64,000 nt of DNA from Candidatus Nitricoxidivorans perseverans (GCA_030246985.1 CP107246.1:372282-436281), one strand, 5' to 3'; shown: positions 30,194 to 33,448, counted from the first letter of the stretch. Notes: a model not told the origin generated them from the letters alone. Made by a program: numbers and translations.

Positions 30194-33100
30194 ATGCGTG
30201 GTCAAAAAAGACTGATCGACGGCATCCACAGCGTCTCTCCGACGAGAGACCTCTGGATGGGAAAACCGACGGAAGACCTGCCCGGAAAGGTGGCGGTGCG
30301 CTTCAGGACGGGGCAATCGGGCCTCCTGGACATGAGCAGTCCCCGCGCCGCCCATTGGGCCGGGGTGATCGACGAGCTGGAGCGGGCCGGCCAGCCGGTC
30401 TACGTCGAGATCGACGAGGAAACCGGGGTCATCACCAACGTCCGGATTCCGCGCCGGCACCGGGTGGAAAGGATCGATCCGGACGAGCGCGGGAACCTGA
30501 TGGTGCGGCTCCGGGCCTCCTCGGCCATTCACTGGCTGCTCCGGTCCGATCCGGGCCACGAGGCCATGCGGGCGAGCCTCCAGGCCGCGCTGGGCGACGG
30601 TTCCGAGCGCCTGATCACCGAAACGCGCGACGAGCACGAAATCATCGCCGTCAGCCTGCCGGAGGCGGCACCGGGCGGCCCGGGCATGCCGGCGCCCTTG
30701 CCGCTTCCCGACCCTCCCGTGTCCGAAACGCGCGCGGCCGACCTGTTCGGCGGCATGGCGGGCAGATCGTGCTCTCCGTGCAACCCGGCCGCGGAGTGCA
30801 TTTCCTTCCTGTACCCCGACGATGGCTGCTGGATTCGCGCGCACATCATGTGCCATCTGATGCGGGCGGGCGGCCCGGACACCACGACGAATCCGCCCGA
30901 GGATCCCGAGAAGGTCTGGATCAACGCGAGCACGTGGCTCGACGCGCCCACCGTGAACCACCCGGACTGCCGCGTGATATGGGGCTGGCACGTGGCGCCG
31001 ACGCTGACGGTCATCCTGCCGGCCGGCAACGAGAAGCGGGTCATCGACCCCTCGTTGAGCCCCGCCCCGGAATCCGAAGCCGCCTGGAAGGGCCGGCAGG
31101 GCGATCCCGGCGCGACGCTCACCGACACGGCCTGGACCGACTACAACTGGATCGGCGACAACACTTCGGTAAGCCTGGCCCAGGCGCACCAGGCCATGCA
31201 GTATTACCGCGACGAGCTGCGGGACCGGTGCCTGGACATCGGGCCGCCGCCGTACAGCTGCACGCGGAACTGCTTCTTCATCATCGACCGGAGTACGTTC
31301 TCAGACGATGAAGTCGAGGCCATGCTGCACATCTCCGCGCCGGCGGTGGTCCCGAGCGCCCTCTACGTGGTCGTGGACGGATTCAGTCCCTACGAGCTCG
31401 GCTTCTCGGCCGCGACCATGCAGCACATTCCGGCGCTGAACGTCTCGCCGTCGGTGGCGGGGATGACGATCACGCCGGTGCAACTGGCATTCGAGCATCC
31501 CTCGCACCTCAACCGCCGGCAGCGCCTCACCTGGGTCTATGACGTCAGCTTCGCCAACACCGGCGGATTCACCAGCGAGCAGGTCACGGTGACGCTGCAG
31601 GCGACCATGGCAACGGTTTCCTGCACCGGCTACCTGTATCTTGTCCGGCAGCCCAATCCCTACGAAATCGACGGCCAGACCTCATGGCTGAGCACCGATC
31701 TCCGGGTGTTCCGGATCGAGGCGGGCCAGTCGAAGTTCGGCGTGGCCATGGGGTCGAATCCCTCCGCCTTCATCACCCAGGTCATCGCCAACCTCAATGG
31801 CGGCAACACGGGCGGGCAGACCTTCGACAACGACATCTCGGTCGACCAGCAGGCATCCCGCCTGGAATTGTCGGGCACGGTGGGCGGCACGCCGGTATTC
31901 AACTTCGCGGTCGCAAAGGTGCGCTATCGCGCGCTCGCCGTCTCGGCCGCCGACGTGCGCGTCTTCTTCCGGCTGTTCCCGGTGGCCACGACGTCGCTCG
32001 AATACGAGCAGGCGACGACTTACCGGCGCCACGCGGCGGGCGGCGCGGCGATCCCGTTGCTGGGCATCAAGAACGGCGAAGTGGCGGCCATCCCCTGCTT
32101 CGCCTCGCCGCGCATCGACTCCGCCGTGTCGAGCATGACCGCGCAGACCGATGCGCCGAACGTGCAGACCCTTCCGCCCAACCCGAGCGGCGCCGAGGTT
32201 GTCCGCTACTTCGGCTGCTGGCTCGACATCAACCAGACGCAGCCGCAATTCCCCATCCAGCCCGTGCCCGTGGACGGCCCCTATCCGTCCGGCCGGGTGA
32301 GCATCCAGGATCTGATCCGCAACGAGCACCAGTGCCTGGTGTCGGAAATCGCCTTCGCCCCGGCGCCGGCCCAGAACGGCGCCACGCCTTCGGTTTCGGA
32401 CAAGCTGGCGCAGCGCAACCTCGCGATCGTCGAGTCGGCGAACCCGGGGCTGGCGTTCTCGCGCCGCATCCCGCAGACCTTCGAAATCCGGCCGTCGACG
32501 GGCGGGAGCGAACACGACGAACTGATGATCGACTGGGGAAACCTGCCGGCTGGCAGTGTGGCGACCCTGCACATGCCCGGCCTGAGCGCGAACGGGATCC
32601 TGCTGCTGGCCGCGAGGAAATACCGCTCCCACAGGTTGCTACGCATCGACGAACACACGCTGAAATTCGAGGCGGGCGGCATCACCTACCTGCCCATCCC
32701 ATTCACGGAGGGCAATCTCCCCGGCATGCTGACCGTGGATCTTCCGGAAGGGATCAAGAAAGGGCAGGTCTTCAAGGTCGTGGTTCGCCAGGTGGCGGCC
32801 GAGGCGCGGCGAAGCTCGAAAGCGCGGGTTGAAAGCCGACAGTCCGACGCGAGGCATGTCGTCGGCTCCTTCCAGCTGACCATCCCCGTGCGGGCGAAAG
32901 CCGAAATCCTGCCCGGCCAGCAGCGGCTGCTCTCCAATCTCCGCTGGATCGAGCGGGCCATCCCGGCGGGGAATCGGTGGGCGCCGGTCTTCGCCAGGTA
33001 TGTGGCGCAGGTCGCCGATCGCGTCGACGCGCTCGGCGGCGACGCGGGCCTGGTGGCGCCTTCCGCCTCCGGCCAGTGGCGGGAAGCCTACCGGACATGC

Positions 33101-33448
33101 CTCCTCCTGACGCTCGCCGCCATCCTCCTCGTCGCGGCGCTGGTCGTCTGCGCCGGCGTGTTGAGCGGCGGCGCGGCGCTGTTGGGCGGCATCCCGGTCG
33201 CCGCCCTGCTGGCCCGCACGGTTTGCCTTTGGCGGAAAAAGTGCCGGCCCACGGACTGCCAGCTGCTTCGAGCCCTGCTGGCGGGCTCGGTCGCCGGCGC
33301 GGCGCTTCTCGCGCTCCTCGCCGCATTCGGAACGCCGGCGCCGCACTTCATCGCCGCGCTGACGGCAAGCGCCGTCGTGGCCGTCGCGGCGGCCATCGCA
33401 GGCTGGGTGAAGGGCTGCCTTGGGTGCGGGCGATGCTGCTCAAGCTGA
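30194..33448 (+). CDS. 1084-aa protein with a protein-glutamine glutaminase (deamidase) domain, a large unknown beta-rich region and a C-terminal multi-TM, Cys-rich anchor
   Basis: GGAGG RBS 7 nt upstream. CISFLYPDDGCWIRAHIMCHLM ... RVIWGWHVAPTL ... KRVIDPSLSP is colinear with Chryseobacterium protein-glutaminase (CITFRYPVDGCYARAHKM / WSYHVA / RIIDPSL, as remembered), including the Cys-His-Asp triad. The last ~115 aa are hydrophobic helices ending GCLGCGRCCSS. Confidence 0.75.
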   Translation: MRGQKRLIDGIHSVSPTRDLWMGKPTEDLPGKVAVRFRTGQSGLLDMSSPRAAHWAGVIDELERAGQPVYVEIDEETGVITNVRIPRRHRVERIDPDERGNLMVRLRASSAIHWLLRSDPGHEAMRASLQAALGDGSERLITETRDEHEIIAVSLPEAAPGGPGMPAPLPLPDPPVSETRAADLFGGMAGRSCSPCNPAAECISFLYPDDGCWIRAHIMCHLMRAGGPDTTTNPPEDPEKVWINASTWLDAPTVNHPDCRVIWGWHVAPTLTVILPAGNEKRVIDPSLSPAPESEAAWKGRQGDPGATLTDTAWTDYNWIGDNTSVSLAQAHQAMQYYRDELRDRCLDIGPPPYSCTRNCFFIIDRSTFSDDEVEAMLHISAPAVVPSALYVVVDGFSPYELGFSAATMQHIPALNVSPSVAGMTITPVQLAFEHPSHLNRRQRLTWVYDVSFANTGGFTSEQVTVTLQATMATVSCTGYLYLVRQPNPYEIDGQTSWLSTDLRVFRIEAGQSKFGVAMGSNPSAFITQVIANLNGGNTGGQTFDNDISVDQQASRLELSGTVGGTPVFNFAVAKVRYRALAVSAADVRVFFRLFPVATTSLEYEQATTYRRHAAGGAAIPLLGIKNGEVAAIPCFASPRIDSAVSSMTAQTDAPNVQTLPPNPSGAEVVRYFGCWLDINQTQPQFPIQPVPVDGPYPSGRVSIQDLIRNEHQCLVSEIAFAPAPAQNGATPSVSDKLAQRNLAIVESANPGLAFSRRIPQTFEIRPSTGGSEHDELMIDWGNLPAGSVATLHMPGLSANGILLLAARKYRSHRLLRIDEHTLKFEAGGITYLPIPFTEGNLPGMLTVDLPEGIKKGQVFKVVVRQVAAEARRSSKARVESRQSDARHVVGSFQLTIPVRAKAEILPGQQRLLSNLRWIERAIPAGNRWAPVFARYVAQVADRVDALGGDAGLVAPSASGQWREAYRTCLLLTLAAILLVAALVVCAGVLSGGAALLGGIPVAALLARTVCLWRKKCRPTDCQLLRALLAGSVAGAALLALLAAFGTPAPHFIAALTASAVVAVAAAIAGWVKGCLGCGRCCSS

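What the first reader, a model, noticed from the sequence alone, without database searches (positions are those of the whole stretch)
30194..33448. Giant membrane-anchored protein with an apparently active protein-glutamine glutaminase domain
- Residues around 185-290 align block by block with the secreted protein-glutaminase of Chryseobacterium, recalled from memory: CISFLYPDDGCWIRAHIM, WGWHVAP, RVIDPSL. The catalytic Cys, His and Asp are conserved.
- Here the domain is embedded in a 1084-aa protein. About 180 residues precede it, which may be a pro-region. About 650 residues of unknown beta-rich sequence follow, then TM helices.
- Gln-deamidating domains are used by several bacterial toxins and effectors. 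A membrane-tethered version inside a conserved-looking operon is unusual.
Basis: partly seen in the sequence, partly recalled or inferred. Interest (0 to 1): 0.65.

Follow-up and report, generated by a model that had tools for sequence, protein, structure and literature searches.

The report
Membrane-anchored latent protein deamidase
This gene encodes a 1,084-residue protein that holds a complete, apparently self-inhibited copy of the food-industry enzyme protein-glutaminase on the inner face of the cell membrane, and it belongs to a large, unstudied protein family that mounts many different enzymes on one constant scaffold.

Summary
ORF 30194-33448 (+) encodes 1,084 aa with a Pfam PF18626 protein-glutaminase domain (E 2.6e-19). 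Cys212, His266 and Asp285 align with the catalytic Cys42, His83 and Asp103 of the Chryseobacterium enzyme and are invariant in 42 of 42 homologues.

New findings:
- Residues 1-355 match the whole zymogen (pro-region plus enzyme), without a signal peptide.
- Four C-terminal membrane helices follow the positive-inside rule, which places the other 960 residues in the cytoplasm.
- Residues 356-960 are a beta-sandwich module with no Pfam, NCBIfam, PDB or phage match. This module defines a family of about 1,500 sequence clusters.
- In that family the N-terminal head is swapped among enzymes that are normally secreted: radical-copper oxidases, lysine oxidase, tyrosinase, S53, M4, M14 and M35 peptidases, and GH123. 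None has a signal peptide.
- The "conserved operon" is not conserved. The gene is solitary, moves horizontally between bacteria and archaea, and sits in accessory regions.

Best reading (about 0.4): a latent, protease-activated protein deamidase used as a conflict effector. The main rival is an unconventionally released exotoxin. Function is untested, and the family appears undescribed.

The parts
30182..30186 (+). Shine-Dalgarno GGAGG, 7 nt upstream of the start codon
   Evidence: Read directly from the sequence.
30194..30658 (+). aa 1-155: pro-region-like domain with mixed beta strands and helices. It has no signal peptide.
   Evidence: The whole-model Foldseek top hit is pro-protein-glutaminase 3A56_A (E 1.5e-11, 273 of 282 columns, TMt 0.65), which needs the pro-region to superpose as well. 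No hydrophobic N-terminal segment occurs in 42 homologues. pLDDT is 73-92.
30659..30727 (+). aa 156-178: Pro-rich disordered linker between the pro-region and the catalytic domain. It is the inferred site of activating cleavage.
   Evidence: pLDDT is below 50 at aa 158-174. The segment lies where the Chryseobacterium pro-region joins the mature enzyme (alignments). Cleavage is an inference, not shown.
30728..31258 (+). aa 179-355: protein-glutamine glutaminase (papain/transglutaminase-like) catalytic domain. Catalytic codons are Cys212 at 30827-30829, His266 at 30989-30991 and Asp285 at 31046-31048.
   Evidence: PF18626 E 2.6e-19. PDB 2KSV, 2ZK9 and 3A54 score E ~3e-10 with the triad aligned. 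Foldseek hit 2KSV has TMt 0.68 over 175 columns. The triad is invariant in 42 of 42 homologues. Codons were checked.
31259..32893 (+). aa 356-900: conserved beta-sandwich module of about 3-4 Ig-like domains. Superfamily-invariant motifs include PNPYExDG..SWLSTDLRVF, IPCFAxPR, QTDxxNV, GCWLDINQ, HQCLV(S/A)EI (aa 712-719) and SDKLAQRNL (aa 735-743).
   Evidence: No Pfam or NCBIfam model covers it. A profile search against PDB sequences found nothing. Foldseek gives only generic multi-Ig matches such as integrin legs and MSCRAMM adhesins, with TM below 0.26. The module is shared at 37-53% identity by proteins with other heads.
32894..33073 (+). aa 901-960: two long conserved helices that end the family-wide module
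   Evidence: The model has helices at 902-922 and 929-946 with pLDDT ~90. They are conserved across head classes: EERLLSxLRWI...RWxPVFxRYVxQxAxRV..LGGD.
33077..33415 (+). aa 962-1074: bundle of four transmembrane helices, with the conserved cytoplasmic loop WRKxCRPxxC between helices 2 and 3
   Evidence: Hydropathy peaks reach 1.7-3.0. The model has helices at 962-989, 992-1016, 1021-1044 and 1052-1072. Over 42 homologues the mean K+R count is 3.4 in loop 2-3, against 0.05 in loop 1-2 and 0.31 in loop 3-4, so the N terminus is inside.
33416..33448 (+). aa 1075-1084: Cys-rich cytoplasmic tail (CLGCGRCCSS) and the stop codon
   Evidence: Translation. C1075 is invariant.
34438..36435 (+). Neighbouring gene: a papain-like C1 peptidase fused to a DUF900-like hydrolase, without a signal peptide. 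It is a possible but unproven activating protease.
   Evidence: Pfam Peptidase_C1 scores E 2.7e-6. A 58%-identical homologue lies about 2.5 kb upstream of a Kelch-headed family member in L060. A 270-aa C1 peptidase plus a chagasin-like inhibitor lies directly downstream of PG-type genes in L103 and L105. The association is rare, so the link is weak.

Best explanation
The gene encodes a cytoplasm-facing, membrane-anchored, latent protein-glutamine deamidase.

Shown here:
- Residues 1-355 are a full homologue of the protein-glutaminase zymogen: pro-region, Pro-rich linker and a catalytic domain with an invariant Cys212-His266-Asp285 triad. There is no signal peptide.
- Residues 356-960 are a conserved beta-sandwich module plus a helical hairpin.
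- Residues 962-1074 are four membrane helices whose charge distribution puts the N-terminal 960 residues in the cytoplasm.
- The 356-960 module defines a family of about 1,500 clusters at 50% identity. Across it the N-terminal head is exchanged among damaging or protein-modifying enzymes, many of which keep their own pro-domains.
- The gene is solitary, compositionally foreign in many hosts, and scattered across bacteria and archaea.

Inferred:
- The pro-region sits over the active site as in the crystal zymogen, so the enzyme is held inactive.
- A protease cuts the exposed linker. In some genomes a subtilase or a papain-like peptidase is encoded next door.
- The freed head then converts protein Gln to Glu at the inner face of the membrane.
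- Because very different enzymes replace one another on one scaffold, the scaffold most likely deploys a generic damage-dealing payload. That points to a biological-conflict effector (suicide or defence, or a toxin) rather than a housekeeping enzyme.
For: - Domain identity and triad.
- Zymogen-like arrangement: Foldseek hit on pro-form 3A56 has 273 of 282 columns and TMt 0.65. Superposing the mature domain alone would give about 0.45 (0.68 x 185/282). The linker is disordered.
- Topology: four hydrophobic helices and positive-inside statistics over 42 homologues. Only 1 of 104 full-length family representatives has a hydrophobic segment in its first 45 aa, and that one does not resemble a signal peptide.
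- Head swapping on a constant module. The M4-headed protein P0171 carries nearly the same 4-TM tail as the PG type.
- Pro-domains are kept in other heads: Pro-kumamolisin activation domain and FTP propeptide.
- Mobility: the PG-type gene is 55-77% identical across Nostoc, Azotobacter, Bacteroidales, Zixibacteria, Chlorobium, Methanosarcinales and Promethearchaeota. Its GC content is 7-15 points above the flanks in several lower-GC hosts.
- Mobile or conflict genes lie within 10 kb in most loci inspected: transposases, HigB, NACHT, an EndoU toxin and three tandem tyrosine recombinases.
- Occasional adjacent proteases.
Against: - No activity, cleavage, localisation or phenotype has been measured.
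- The head repertoire (lysine oxidase, tyrosinase, radical-copper oxidases, S53, M4 and M35 peptidases, GH123) is typical of extracellular enzymes, which fits an exported protein better.
- Two of the recurrent upstream partners carry outer-membrane beta-barrel ends, so they are not cytoplasmic.
- No PADLOC defence model matches.
- No adjacent immunity gene and no conserved partner was found.
- Mean column identity of 64% over the full length is high for an arms-race protein.
- The model coordinates could not be inspected, so occlusion of the active site is inferred only from the rigid-body TM-score.
Confidence: 0.4

Rival explanations
1. The protein is an unconventionally exported or lysis-released exoenzyme or toxin. 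On this view the constant module is an adhesion or delivery device. The hydrophobic helices act as an anchor or a membrane-insertion element, and the glutaminase works outside the producer or inside a target cell after its pro-region is removed, like the secreted Chryseobacterium enzyme.
For: - All identified heads are enzyme types normally found outside cells, several with secretion-type pro-domains.
- LodA-type oxidases are described as antimicrobial through the hydrogen peroxide they generate (abstract of PMC4417212).
- The structural neighbours of the module are extracellular adhesins and integrin legs.
- The module has invariant Asp/Asn-rich motifs that could bind calcium. This is an inference.
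- An endolysin-like gene without a signal peptide (PG_binding_1 plus phrog_30036) starts 26 nt after the stop codon. A PG_binding_1-CHAP gene lies 4 kb downstream of the 74%-identical homologue. Both suggest holin/endolysin-type release.
- The upstream S8/VWA partners in L005 and L016 end in outer-membrane barrel-like sequences.
Against: - Signal peptides are absent from 42 PG-type homologues and from 103 of 104 family representatives.
- The positive-inside rule gives an N-in topology.
- The family occurs in diderm bacteria, monoderm bacteria and archaea, which share no specialised secretion system.
- No secretion, holin or immunity genes are conserved nearby.
- The lysin neighbour is seen in only 2 of about 40 PG-type loci.
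Confidence: 0.27
2. The protein is a housekeeping or regulatory membrane-associated deamidase. It would modify a specific host protein at the membrane, as CheD deamidates chemoreceptors, and would have no role in conflict.
For: The sequence is conserved over its full length, with 64% mean column identity. The predicted topology is cytoplasmic and membrane-proximal. In this genome the gene's GC content resembles its surroundings (0.68 against 0.65).
Against: The phyletic distribution is patchy, and the gene is compositionally foreign in many hosts. The head is exchanged for unrelated enzymes on the same scaffold. No substrate-like gene or pathway is conserved nearby. The gene lies in accessory or plasmid contexts.
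Confidence: 0.15
3. The gene's function is tied to the local gene block in this window, made up of a radical SAM/SPASM peptide maturase, a small ORF, a lysin-like protein and a C1 peptidase. One possibility is that the maturase modifies the Cys-rich tail or that the glutaminase processes a peptide product.
For: All genes from 24442 to 37927 are on the same strand with short gaps, and no convincing terminators separate them. The radical SAM gene is a PapB-like peptide maturase. The glutaminase protein ends in CLGCGRCCSS.
Against: None of these neighbours recurs beside any of the other 43 PG-type loci or the roughly 130 other family loci, apart from the C1 peptidase in a few. The block looks like an accessory insertion after nifX.
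Confidence: 0.06
4. The glutaminase head is a non-catalytic binding module on a structural protein, i.e. a pseudo-enzyme.
For: About a third of the family carries Kelch or BNR propeller heads, which can act purely as binding modules.
Against: The triad is invariant in 42 of 42 sequences, as are the surrounding motifs DGCW.RAH, WGWHVAP and IDPS. The HExxH motif of the M4 head is also intact.
Confidence: 0.04

Closest known systems
Pro-protein-glutaminase of Chryseobacterium proteolyticum (PDB 3A56/3A54 pro-form; 2KSV/2ZK9 mature) and Flavobacterium FBPG (8Z3I)
   Same: The fold matches for both the pro-region and the catalytic domain (Foldseek E 1.5e-11, 273 of 282 columns). Both belong to Pfam PF18626. 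The Cys-His-Asp triad aligns. The mature-domain length is about 185 aa, and a linker sits where the zymogen is processed.
   Different: Identity is only 20-25%, and the protein fails the NCBIfam equivalog model (40 bits against a cutoff of 250). It has no signal peptide, whereas the known enzymes have 16-21-aa signal peptides and are secreted (PMC9396377). Its pro-like region is longer, about 155 aa against 108-118. It is fused to a 600-aa module and four membrane helices, and it is predicted to face the cytoplasm.
Papain-fold glutamine-deamidase toxins and effectors (Cif/CHBP, CNF1, Pasteurella toxin C3, OspI, TecA), compared from general knowledge
   Same: Both use a Cys-His-based papain/transglutaminase-like deamidase as a protein-modifying payload on a larger multidomain protein.
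   Different: No sequence or structural match to any of these was found here. The best matches are all protein-glutaminases. Those toxins use known delivery routes, and no such route is evident for this protein.
Polymorphic toxin systems (Zhang et al. 2012), compared from general knowledge
   Same: Unrelated enzymatic domains are recombined onto one conserved scaffold, the distribution is patchy and horizontally transferred, and the genes lie in accessory or plasmid regions.
   Different: The variable domain is N-terminal here, not C-terminal. No recognised trafficking domain (Rhs, LXG, PAAR, filamentous haemagglutinin and the like) and no adjacent immunity gene was found. The heads are exoenzyme-like oxidases and peptidases rather than nucleases or deaminases.
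Protease-activated latent cell-death effectors such as bacterial gasdermins, compared from general knowledge
   Same: The proposed logic is the same: an auto-inhibited protein with a membrane-active part is switched on by a protease, which is sometimes encoded next door.
   Different: There is no homology. Only a minority of loci have a protease partner. No defence model matches. Activation is inferred, not shown.
LodA/AlpP-type lysine-epsilon oxidases, GlxA/galactose-oxidase radical-copper oxidases, and tyrosinases with C-terminal extensions
   Same: These enzyme types occur as alternative heads on the same scaffold.
   Different: They are paralogous family members with other chemistry. They inform the family's logic but not the chemistry of this protein.

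Membership tests
Pfam PF18626 Gln_deamidase_2 (protein-glutaminase domain family) | Profile match above the curated gathering score | tested here: met
   69.8 bits against a cutoff of 25, E 2.6e-19, covering profile positions 4-104 of 106.
Pfam PF18626 Gln_deamidase_2 (protein-glutaminase domain family) | Catalytic Cys-His-Asp triad at the positions of Cys42, His83 and Asp103 of the mature Chryseobacterium enzyme | tested here: met
   The HMMER alignment to 2KSV places them on C212, H266 and D285. All three are invariant in 42 of 42 homologues. That the active site is Cys-His-Asp is stated in PMC9396377. The residue numbers are from my own knowledge and are consistent with counting along the alignment.
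Pfam PF18626 Gln_deamidase_2 (protein-glutaminase domain family) | Papain/transglutaminase-like fold of protein-glutaminase | tested here: met
   Foldseek top hits are 3A56, 3A54, 8Z3I and 2KSV, with probability 1.00 and TMt 0.64-0.68.
Pfam PF18626 Gln_deamidase_2 (protein-glutaminase domain family) | Gln-to-Glu deamidase activity on peptides or proteins | not testable with these tools
   This needs an enzyme assay on Cbz-Gln-Gly or proteins, with a C212A control.
NCBIfam NF040782 PG_glutam_Chrys (equivalog of the secreted protein-glutamine glutaminase) | Whole-protein score above the equivalog cutoff | tested here: not met
   40.4 bits against a cutoff of 250. The protein is a distant family member, not an orthologue.
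NCBIfam NF040782 PG_glutam_Chrys (equivalog of the secreted protein-glutamine glutaminase) | N-terminal signal peptide followed by a cleavable pro-region (secreted zymogen) | tested here: not met
   A pro-region-like domain is present, but there is no signal peptide. The highest 12-residue hydropathy in the first 70 aa averages 0.66 over 42 homologues. The known enzymes have 16-21-aa signal peptides (PMC9396377).
Integral membrane protein (C-terminal anchor, N-in) | Hydrophobic helices of membrane-spanning length with positive-inside charge bias | tested here: met
   Four helices of 20-28 residues are seen by hydropathy and in the AF2 model. K+R averages 3.4 in loop 2-3, against 0.05 and 0.31 in the alternate loops. 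No dedicated topology predictor and no experiment was available.
Head-swapping family defined by the aa 356-960 module (unnamed) | Full-length match to the ~600-aa module with its invariant motifs (HQCLVxEI, SDKLAQRNL, GCWLDINQ) | tested here: met
   The window protein is the reference. There are 1,498 cluster representatives at E<=1e-3 and 526 at E<=1e-30. The motifs are invariant across 33 sequences from different head classes.
Polymorphic toxin systems | Diverse enzymatic domains recombined on a conserved scaffold | tested here: met
   At least 12 head classes occur on one module.
Polymorphic toxin systems | Adjacent cognate immunity gene and a recognised trafficking or secretion domain | tested here: not met
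   No neighbour is conserved in about 170 loci. No trafficking domain was found by Pfam or NCBIfam.
Known anti-phage defence systems | Match to a defence-system protein model | tested here: not met
   PADLOC-DB gives no hit for the protein. Only the neighbouring radical SAM gene weakly matches pVip through the generic radical-SAM core.
Phage-encoded protein | Homologues in phage genomes or PHROG families | tested here: not met
   No PHROG hit. No relative was found among 2.9 million viral contigs.

The most novel reading that the evidence does not exclude
The aa 356-960 module defines a previously unrecognised family spanning bacteria and archaea. It deploys latent, exoenzyme-type payloads (deamidase, H2O2-producing oxidases, tyrosinase, pro-peptidases, glycosidases) without any signal peptide. 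The family would be either a new class of protease-triggered cell-suicide or defence effectors, or a new Sec-independent toxin release and delivery scaffold. The protein here would be its membrane-anchored glutamine-deamidase version.
Probability: 0.3. Interest if true: 0.85.

Novelty: new variant of a known kind. Interest (0 to 1): 0.66.

Why it matters
Protein-glutaminase is known only as a secreted food-processing enzyme of Bacteroidota, and its natural role is obscure. Here the complete zymogen is fixed to the cytoplasmic side of the membrane in a betaproteobacterial nitrogen fixer. The same protein is spread by gene transfer to cyanobacteria, sulfur bacteria, methanogens and Asgard archaea.

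More broadly, it exposes a large unannotated family of about 1,500 clusters. In this family a constant 600-residue module carries interchangeable enzymes that should be extracellular, yet none has an export signal. Explaining that paradox would reveal either a new kind of latent intracellular effector or a new export route. It would also give a source of naturally pro-inhibited deamidases, oxidases and peptidases. The predictions are directly testable through topology mapping, pro-region removal and a Cys212 mutant.

Tried and rejected
- PADLOC defence models on the protein and eight neighbours gave nothing for the protein.
- PHROGs gave no hit, and a scan of 2.9 million viral contigs with the module profile found no relative. 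The gene is therefore not a phage gene.
- A profile search of PDB sequences with the module found nothing.
- Foldseek of the module alone against PDB and BFVD gave only generic multi-Ig hits with TM below 0.26, except small single-domain targets with TMt up to 0.47.
- Pfam and NCBIfam on seven other family members found no model for the module or for the 85-aa C-terminal domain.
- Neighbour conservation was tested three ways. The tests were tblastn of the window's neighbours against all loci, and all-against-all ORF clustering in 84 and then 27 loci. They were repeated with 80 metagenome loci. No general partner emerged, so I rejected the operon idea.
- A search with the TM tail alone returned only four fragments.
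- Looking up the window protein's own contig found no record.
- Literature searches for PF18626, for the protein-glutaminase domain and for the head combination found no description of this architecture.
- A link to nitrogen fixation was considered, because the gene lies 6 kb from nifENX and several hosts are diazotrophs. I rejected it because no nif genes flank the homologues inspected and because relatives have different genes after nifX.
- A degenerate pseudo-enzyme was rejected because the triad is invariant.
- Terminator and promoter scans gave no more sites than shuffled sequence.

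
Full report
**1. The observation**

The ORF at 30194-33448 (+) is real. Its third-position GC is 0.88, like the surrounding genes. A GGAGG ribosome-binding site lies 7 nt before the ATG, and homologues start at the same Met.

A profile search gives Pfam PF18626 Gln_deamidase_2 at E 2.6e-19, 69.8 bits against a cutoff of 25. A search of PDB sequences finds only protein-glutaminases: 2KSV, 2ZK9, 3A54, 3A56 and 8Z3I, at E 2e-10 to 8e-9. 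In the printed alignment the catalytic Cys42, His83 and Asp103 fall on Cys212, His266 and Asp285. That the active site is Cys-His-Asp is stated in PMC9396377. The residue numbering is from my own knowledge and agrees with counting along the alignment. All three residues are invariant in 42 of 42 diverse homologues.

The protein does not reach the NCBIfam equivalog threshold for the Chryseobacterium enzyme (40 against 250 bits). It is therefore a distant member of the family and not an orthologue.

**2. Anatomy**

An AlphaFold2 model built on 42 homologues has mean pLDDT 80 and pTM 0.78. Its best structural match in the PDB is the pro-form, not the mature enzyme. The hit is 3A56_A at E 1.5e-11, with 273 of 282 columns aligned and target-normalised TM 0.65. 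The mature domain alone (185 of 282 residues, TMt 0.68 against 2KSV) could give at most about 0.45. The N-terminal ~155 residues must therefore superpose on the inhibitory pro-region in the same rigid frame.

A Pro-rich segment with pLDDT below 50 (aa 158-174) separates the two parts. It lies where the known zymogen is processed. Residues 1-355 are thus a complete protein-glutaminase zymogen minus its signal peptide.

Residues 356-900 are beta-rich, forming about three to four Ig-like sandwiches. Two long helices follow (aa 902-946), then four hydrophobic helices (962-989, 992-1016, 1021-1044, 1052-1072) and a Cys-rich tail.

Over 42 homologues, the loop between helices 2 and 3 (WRKxCRPxxC) carries 3.4 Lys+Arg on average. 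The other two loops carry 0.05 and 0.31. No homologue has a hydrophobic N-terminal segment. By the positive-inside rule, and given the lack of a signal peptide, the 960-residue N-terminal part, enzyme included, faces the cytoplasm. This is a prediction and has not been measured.

**3. Relatives**

More than 200 proteins of about 1,075 aa match end to end at 55-77% identity. Genome scans place them in these taxa:
- Nostoc, Azotobacter chroococcum, Bacteroidales and Zixibacteria;
- Chlorobium, Enterobacterales, Omnitrophota and Dehalococcoidia;
- Methanosarcinales (71% identity), another euryarchaeote and Promethearchaeota.

In many lower-GC hosts the gene is 7-15 GC points richer than its flanks. 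Examples are Nostoc at 0.50 against 0.41 and L009 at 0.53 against 0.38. This indicates fairly recent horizontal transfer.

Many more genomes match only aa ~358-964, at 37-53% identity. A full HMMER scan with that segment finds 1,498 cluster representatives (526 at E<=1e-30). In the best 150 listed, the module takes up the C-terminal part of the complete proteins, most of which are 1,000-1,450 aa long.

Their N-terminal heads differ:
- Kelch, galactose-oxidase and GlxA-like radical-copper oxidases, the largest class;
- S53 sedolisins with the pro-kumamolisin activation domain;
- M14 carboxypeptidases and BNR propellers;
- LodA-type lysine-epsilon oxidases and tyrosinases;
- M35 aspzincins and an M4 thermolysin with its FTP propeptide;
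- GH123, a LamG-like domain and several unknown heads.

Only 1 of 104 full-length representatives has any hydrophobic stretch in its first 45 residues, and that one does not look like a signal peptide.

The C terminus comes in two main versions. One is a membrane tail, which is a four-helix bundle in the PG, M14 and M4 types and a single helix in a few others; it occurs in 31 of 99 representatives. The other is an ~85-residue soluble domain with the motif YDRFGDFEGF, in 48 of 99. The M4-headed protein P0171 carries almost the same membrane tail as the glutaminase type, so heads are exchanged on one chassis.

The module has no Pfam or NCBIfam model and no PDB sequence relative. It has no PHROG hit and no relative on viral contigs. 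Its structural neighbours are only generic Ig-stacks, all with low TM-scores. It contains many invariant polar residues, for example HQCLVxEI and SDKLAQRNL, whose role is unknown.

**4. Genomic context**

NifE places the window in a Rhodocyclaceae-like betaproteobacterium. The gene lies after nifENX, in a same-strand block. In order, the block contains:
- a TIGR03790-family protein;
- an Ig-like 673-aa protein;
- a PapB-like radical SAM/SPASM peptide maturase and a small ORF;
- the glutaminase gene itself;
- an endolysin-like PG_binding_1 protein;
- a C1 peptidase fused to DUF900;
- a small membrane protein and VanZ.

An IS4-type transposase follows at 40.3 kb. Close relatives have other genes after nifX, namely RseC, DUF269 and a ferredoxin. 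The block therefore looks accessory.

None of these neighbours recurs beside the 43 glutaminase-type loci or the roughly 130 other family loci examined. The claim of a conserved operon fails.

Two protease partners do recur, but rarely. Large S8 and/or VWA proteins lie immediately upstream in Azotobacter and three other loci. Papain-like C1 peptidases lie next to family genes in this window, in L103 and L105 (there with a chagasin-like inhibitor) and in L060.

Cultured carriers include Ralstonia solanacearum plasmids (S53 head) and Bacillus cereus-group plasmids (oxidase head). There the gene is again solitary, beside IS elements, recombinases or toxin genes, and is annotated only by its head or as hypothetical.

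**5. Interpretation**

Four things are firmly supported: the domain identity, the intact triad, the zymogen-like head and the C-terminal membrane anchor. The cytoplasmic orientation is a strong prediction.

The functional reading is an inference. One scaffold carries mutually unrelated enzymes that modify or damage proteins or generate peroxide. Many of these keep their own inhibitory pro-domains. The scaffold spreads as a single gene through accessory regions of very distant organisms.

The most economical explanation is a latent payload released by proteolysis, that is, a conflict effector. Here it would deamidate protein glutamines at the inner face of the membrane. I put this at about 0.4.

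The main rival, at about 0.27, is that the family is exported or released by an unconventional route and acts outside the cell. The exoenzyme character of every head, the adhesin-like structural neighbours and the lysin gene that starts 26 nt after this gene all speak for it. The universal lack of signal peptides, the topology statistics and the spread across cell-envelope types speak against it.

A housekeeping deamidase, a function tied to the local block, and a pseudo-enzyme are less likely, as detailed under the rival explanations.

**6. Novelty**

The enzyme domain is of a known kind and is already auto-annotated in public databases. The architecture is not described in the literature I could search. 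That architecture is a signal-less zymogen, a 600-residue module and a four-helix anchor, with the bulk predicted to be cytoplasmic. The same holds for the head-swapping family it reveals. I classify the finding as a new variant of a known kind. There is about a 0.3 chance that the family represents a new class of effector or delivery system.

Noticed in passing
window 33474-34427 (+): An endolysin-like gene starts 26 nt after the glutaminase stop codon. It has a PG_binding_1 domain plus a C-terminal domain matching phrog_30036, and no signal peptide. A PG_binding_1-CHAP gene also lies 4 kb downstream of the 74%-identical homologue in L086. This could hint at lysis-type release, but it is seen in only 2 loci.
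   Followed up: partly
window 34438-36435 (+); L060 2188-4083; L103 3731-5151; L105 7114-8534: A signal-less papain-like C1 peptidase is fused to a DUF900-like hydrolase. A 58%-identical copy lies near a Kelch-headed family member (L060). Shorter C1 peptidases with a chagasin-like inhibitor (NPTTGYHW motif) lie directly downstream of glutaminase-type genes in L103 and L105.
   Followed up: partly
window 28425-29648 and 29659-30066 (+): A PapB-like radical SAM/SPASM peptide maturase (NCBIfam E 8e-53, below the equivalog cutoff) is followed by a 135-aa ORF with no family match. This may be a RiPP pair, and it is unrelated to the glutaminase gene in other genomes.
   Followed up: partly
window 18342-24049 (+), compared with L089 and L090: nifE, nifN and a NifX-like gene are contiguous here. 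In the closest relatives (NifE ~90% identical), nifE and nifN are separated by 6-8 kb of unrelated genes, and nifX is followed by RseC, DUF269 and a ferredoxin, which are absent here. The nif region is rearranged by insertions in this lineage.
   Followed up: partly
family loci, e.g. L034 aa ~1010-1098, L045, P0149 C termini: Most non-membrane family members end in an ~85-aa domain (GKIxGLxYDRFGDFEGFLLDTExGExxF...AWxER..TV...PHRP) that has no Pfam or NCBIfam model. It is often preceded by His- and Cys-rich linkers such as HGHGHAHAH or CGCGCGHGGCGHGGC, which suggests metal binding.
   Followed up: no
L001 244-4056; L005 5627-9958; L016 219-2567: Giant S8 and/or VWA proteins sit 13-43 nt upstream of glutaminase-type genes. 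The Azotobacter protein (S8 + VWA) has no signal peptide. The L005 (S8 + VWA) and L016 (VWA only) proteins end in outer-membrane beta-barrel-like sequences, so the partners are heterogeneous in location.
   Followed up: partly
window 40303-41988 (+): A DDE_Tnp_1 (IS4-type) transposase lies 7 kb downstream of the gene. This fits an accessory block between the nif genes and a polysaccharide-export cluster.
   Followed up: no
window 54000-64000: GC content drops from about 0.65-0.70 to 0.54-0.61, and AT skew reaches -0.29 at 54-56 kb. The region sits downstream of the polysaccharide-export genes at 45.9-46.7 kb. Its genes were not annotated. It is probably a separately acquired segment.
   Followed up: no
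L023 8001-11230 (Euryarchaeota MAG, 159-kb contig): The glutaminase-type gene matches over aa 1-1077 by tblastn, but the longest ORF covers only aa 520-1077. The cause is probably a frameshift, a pseudogene or an assembly error.
   Followed up: no
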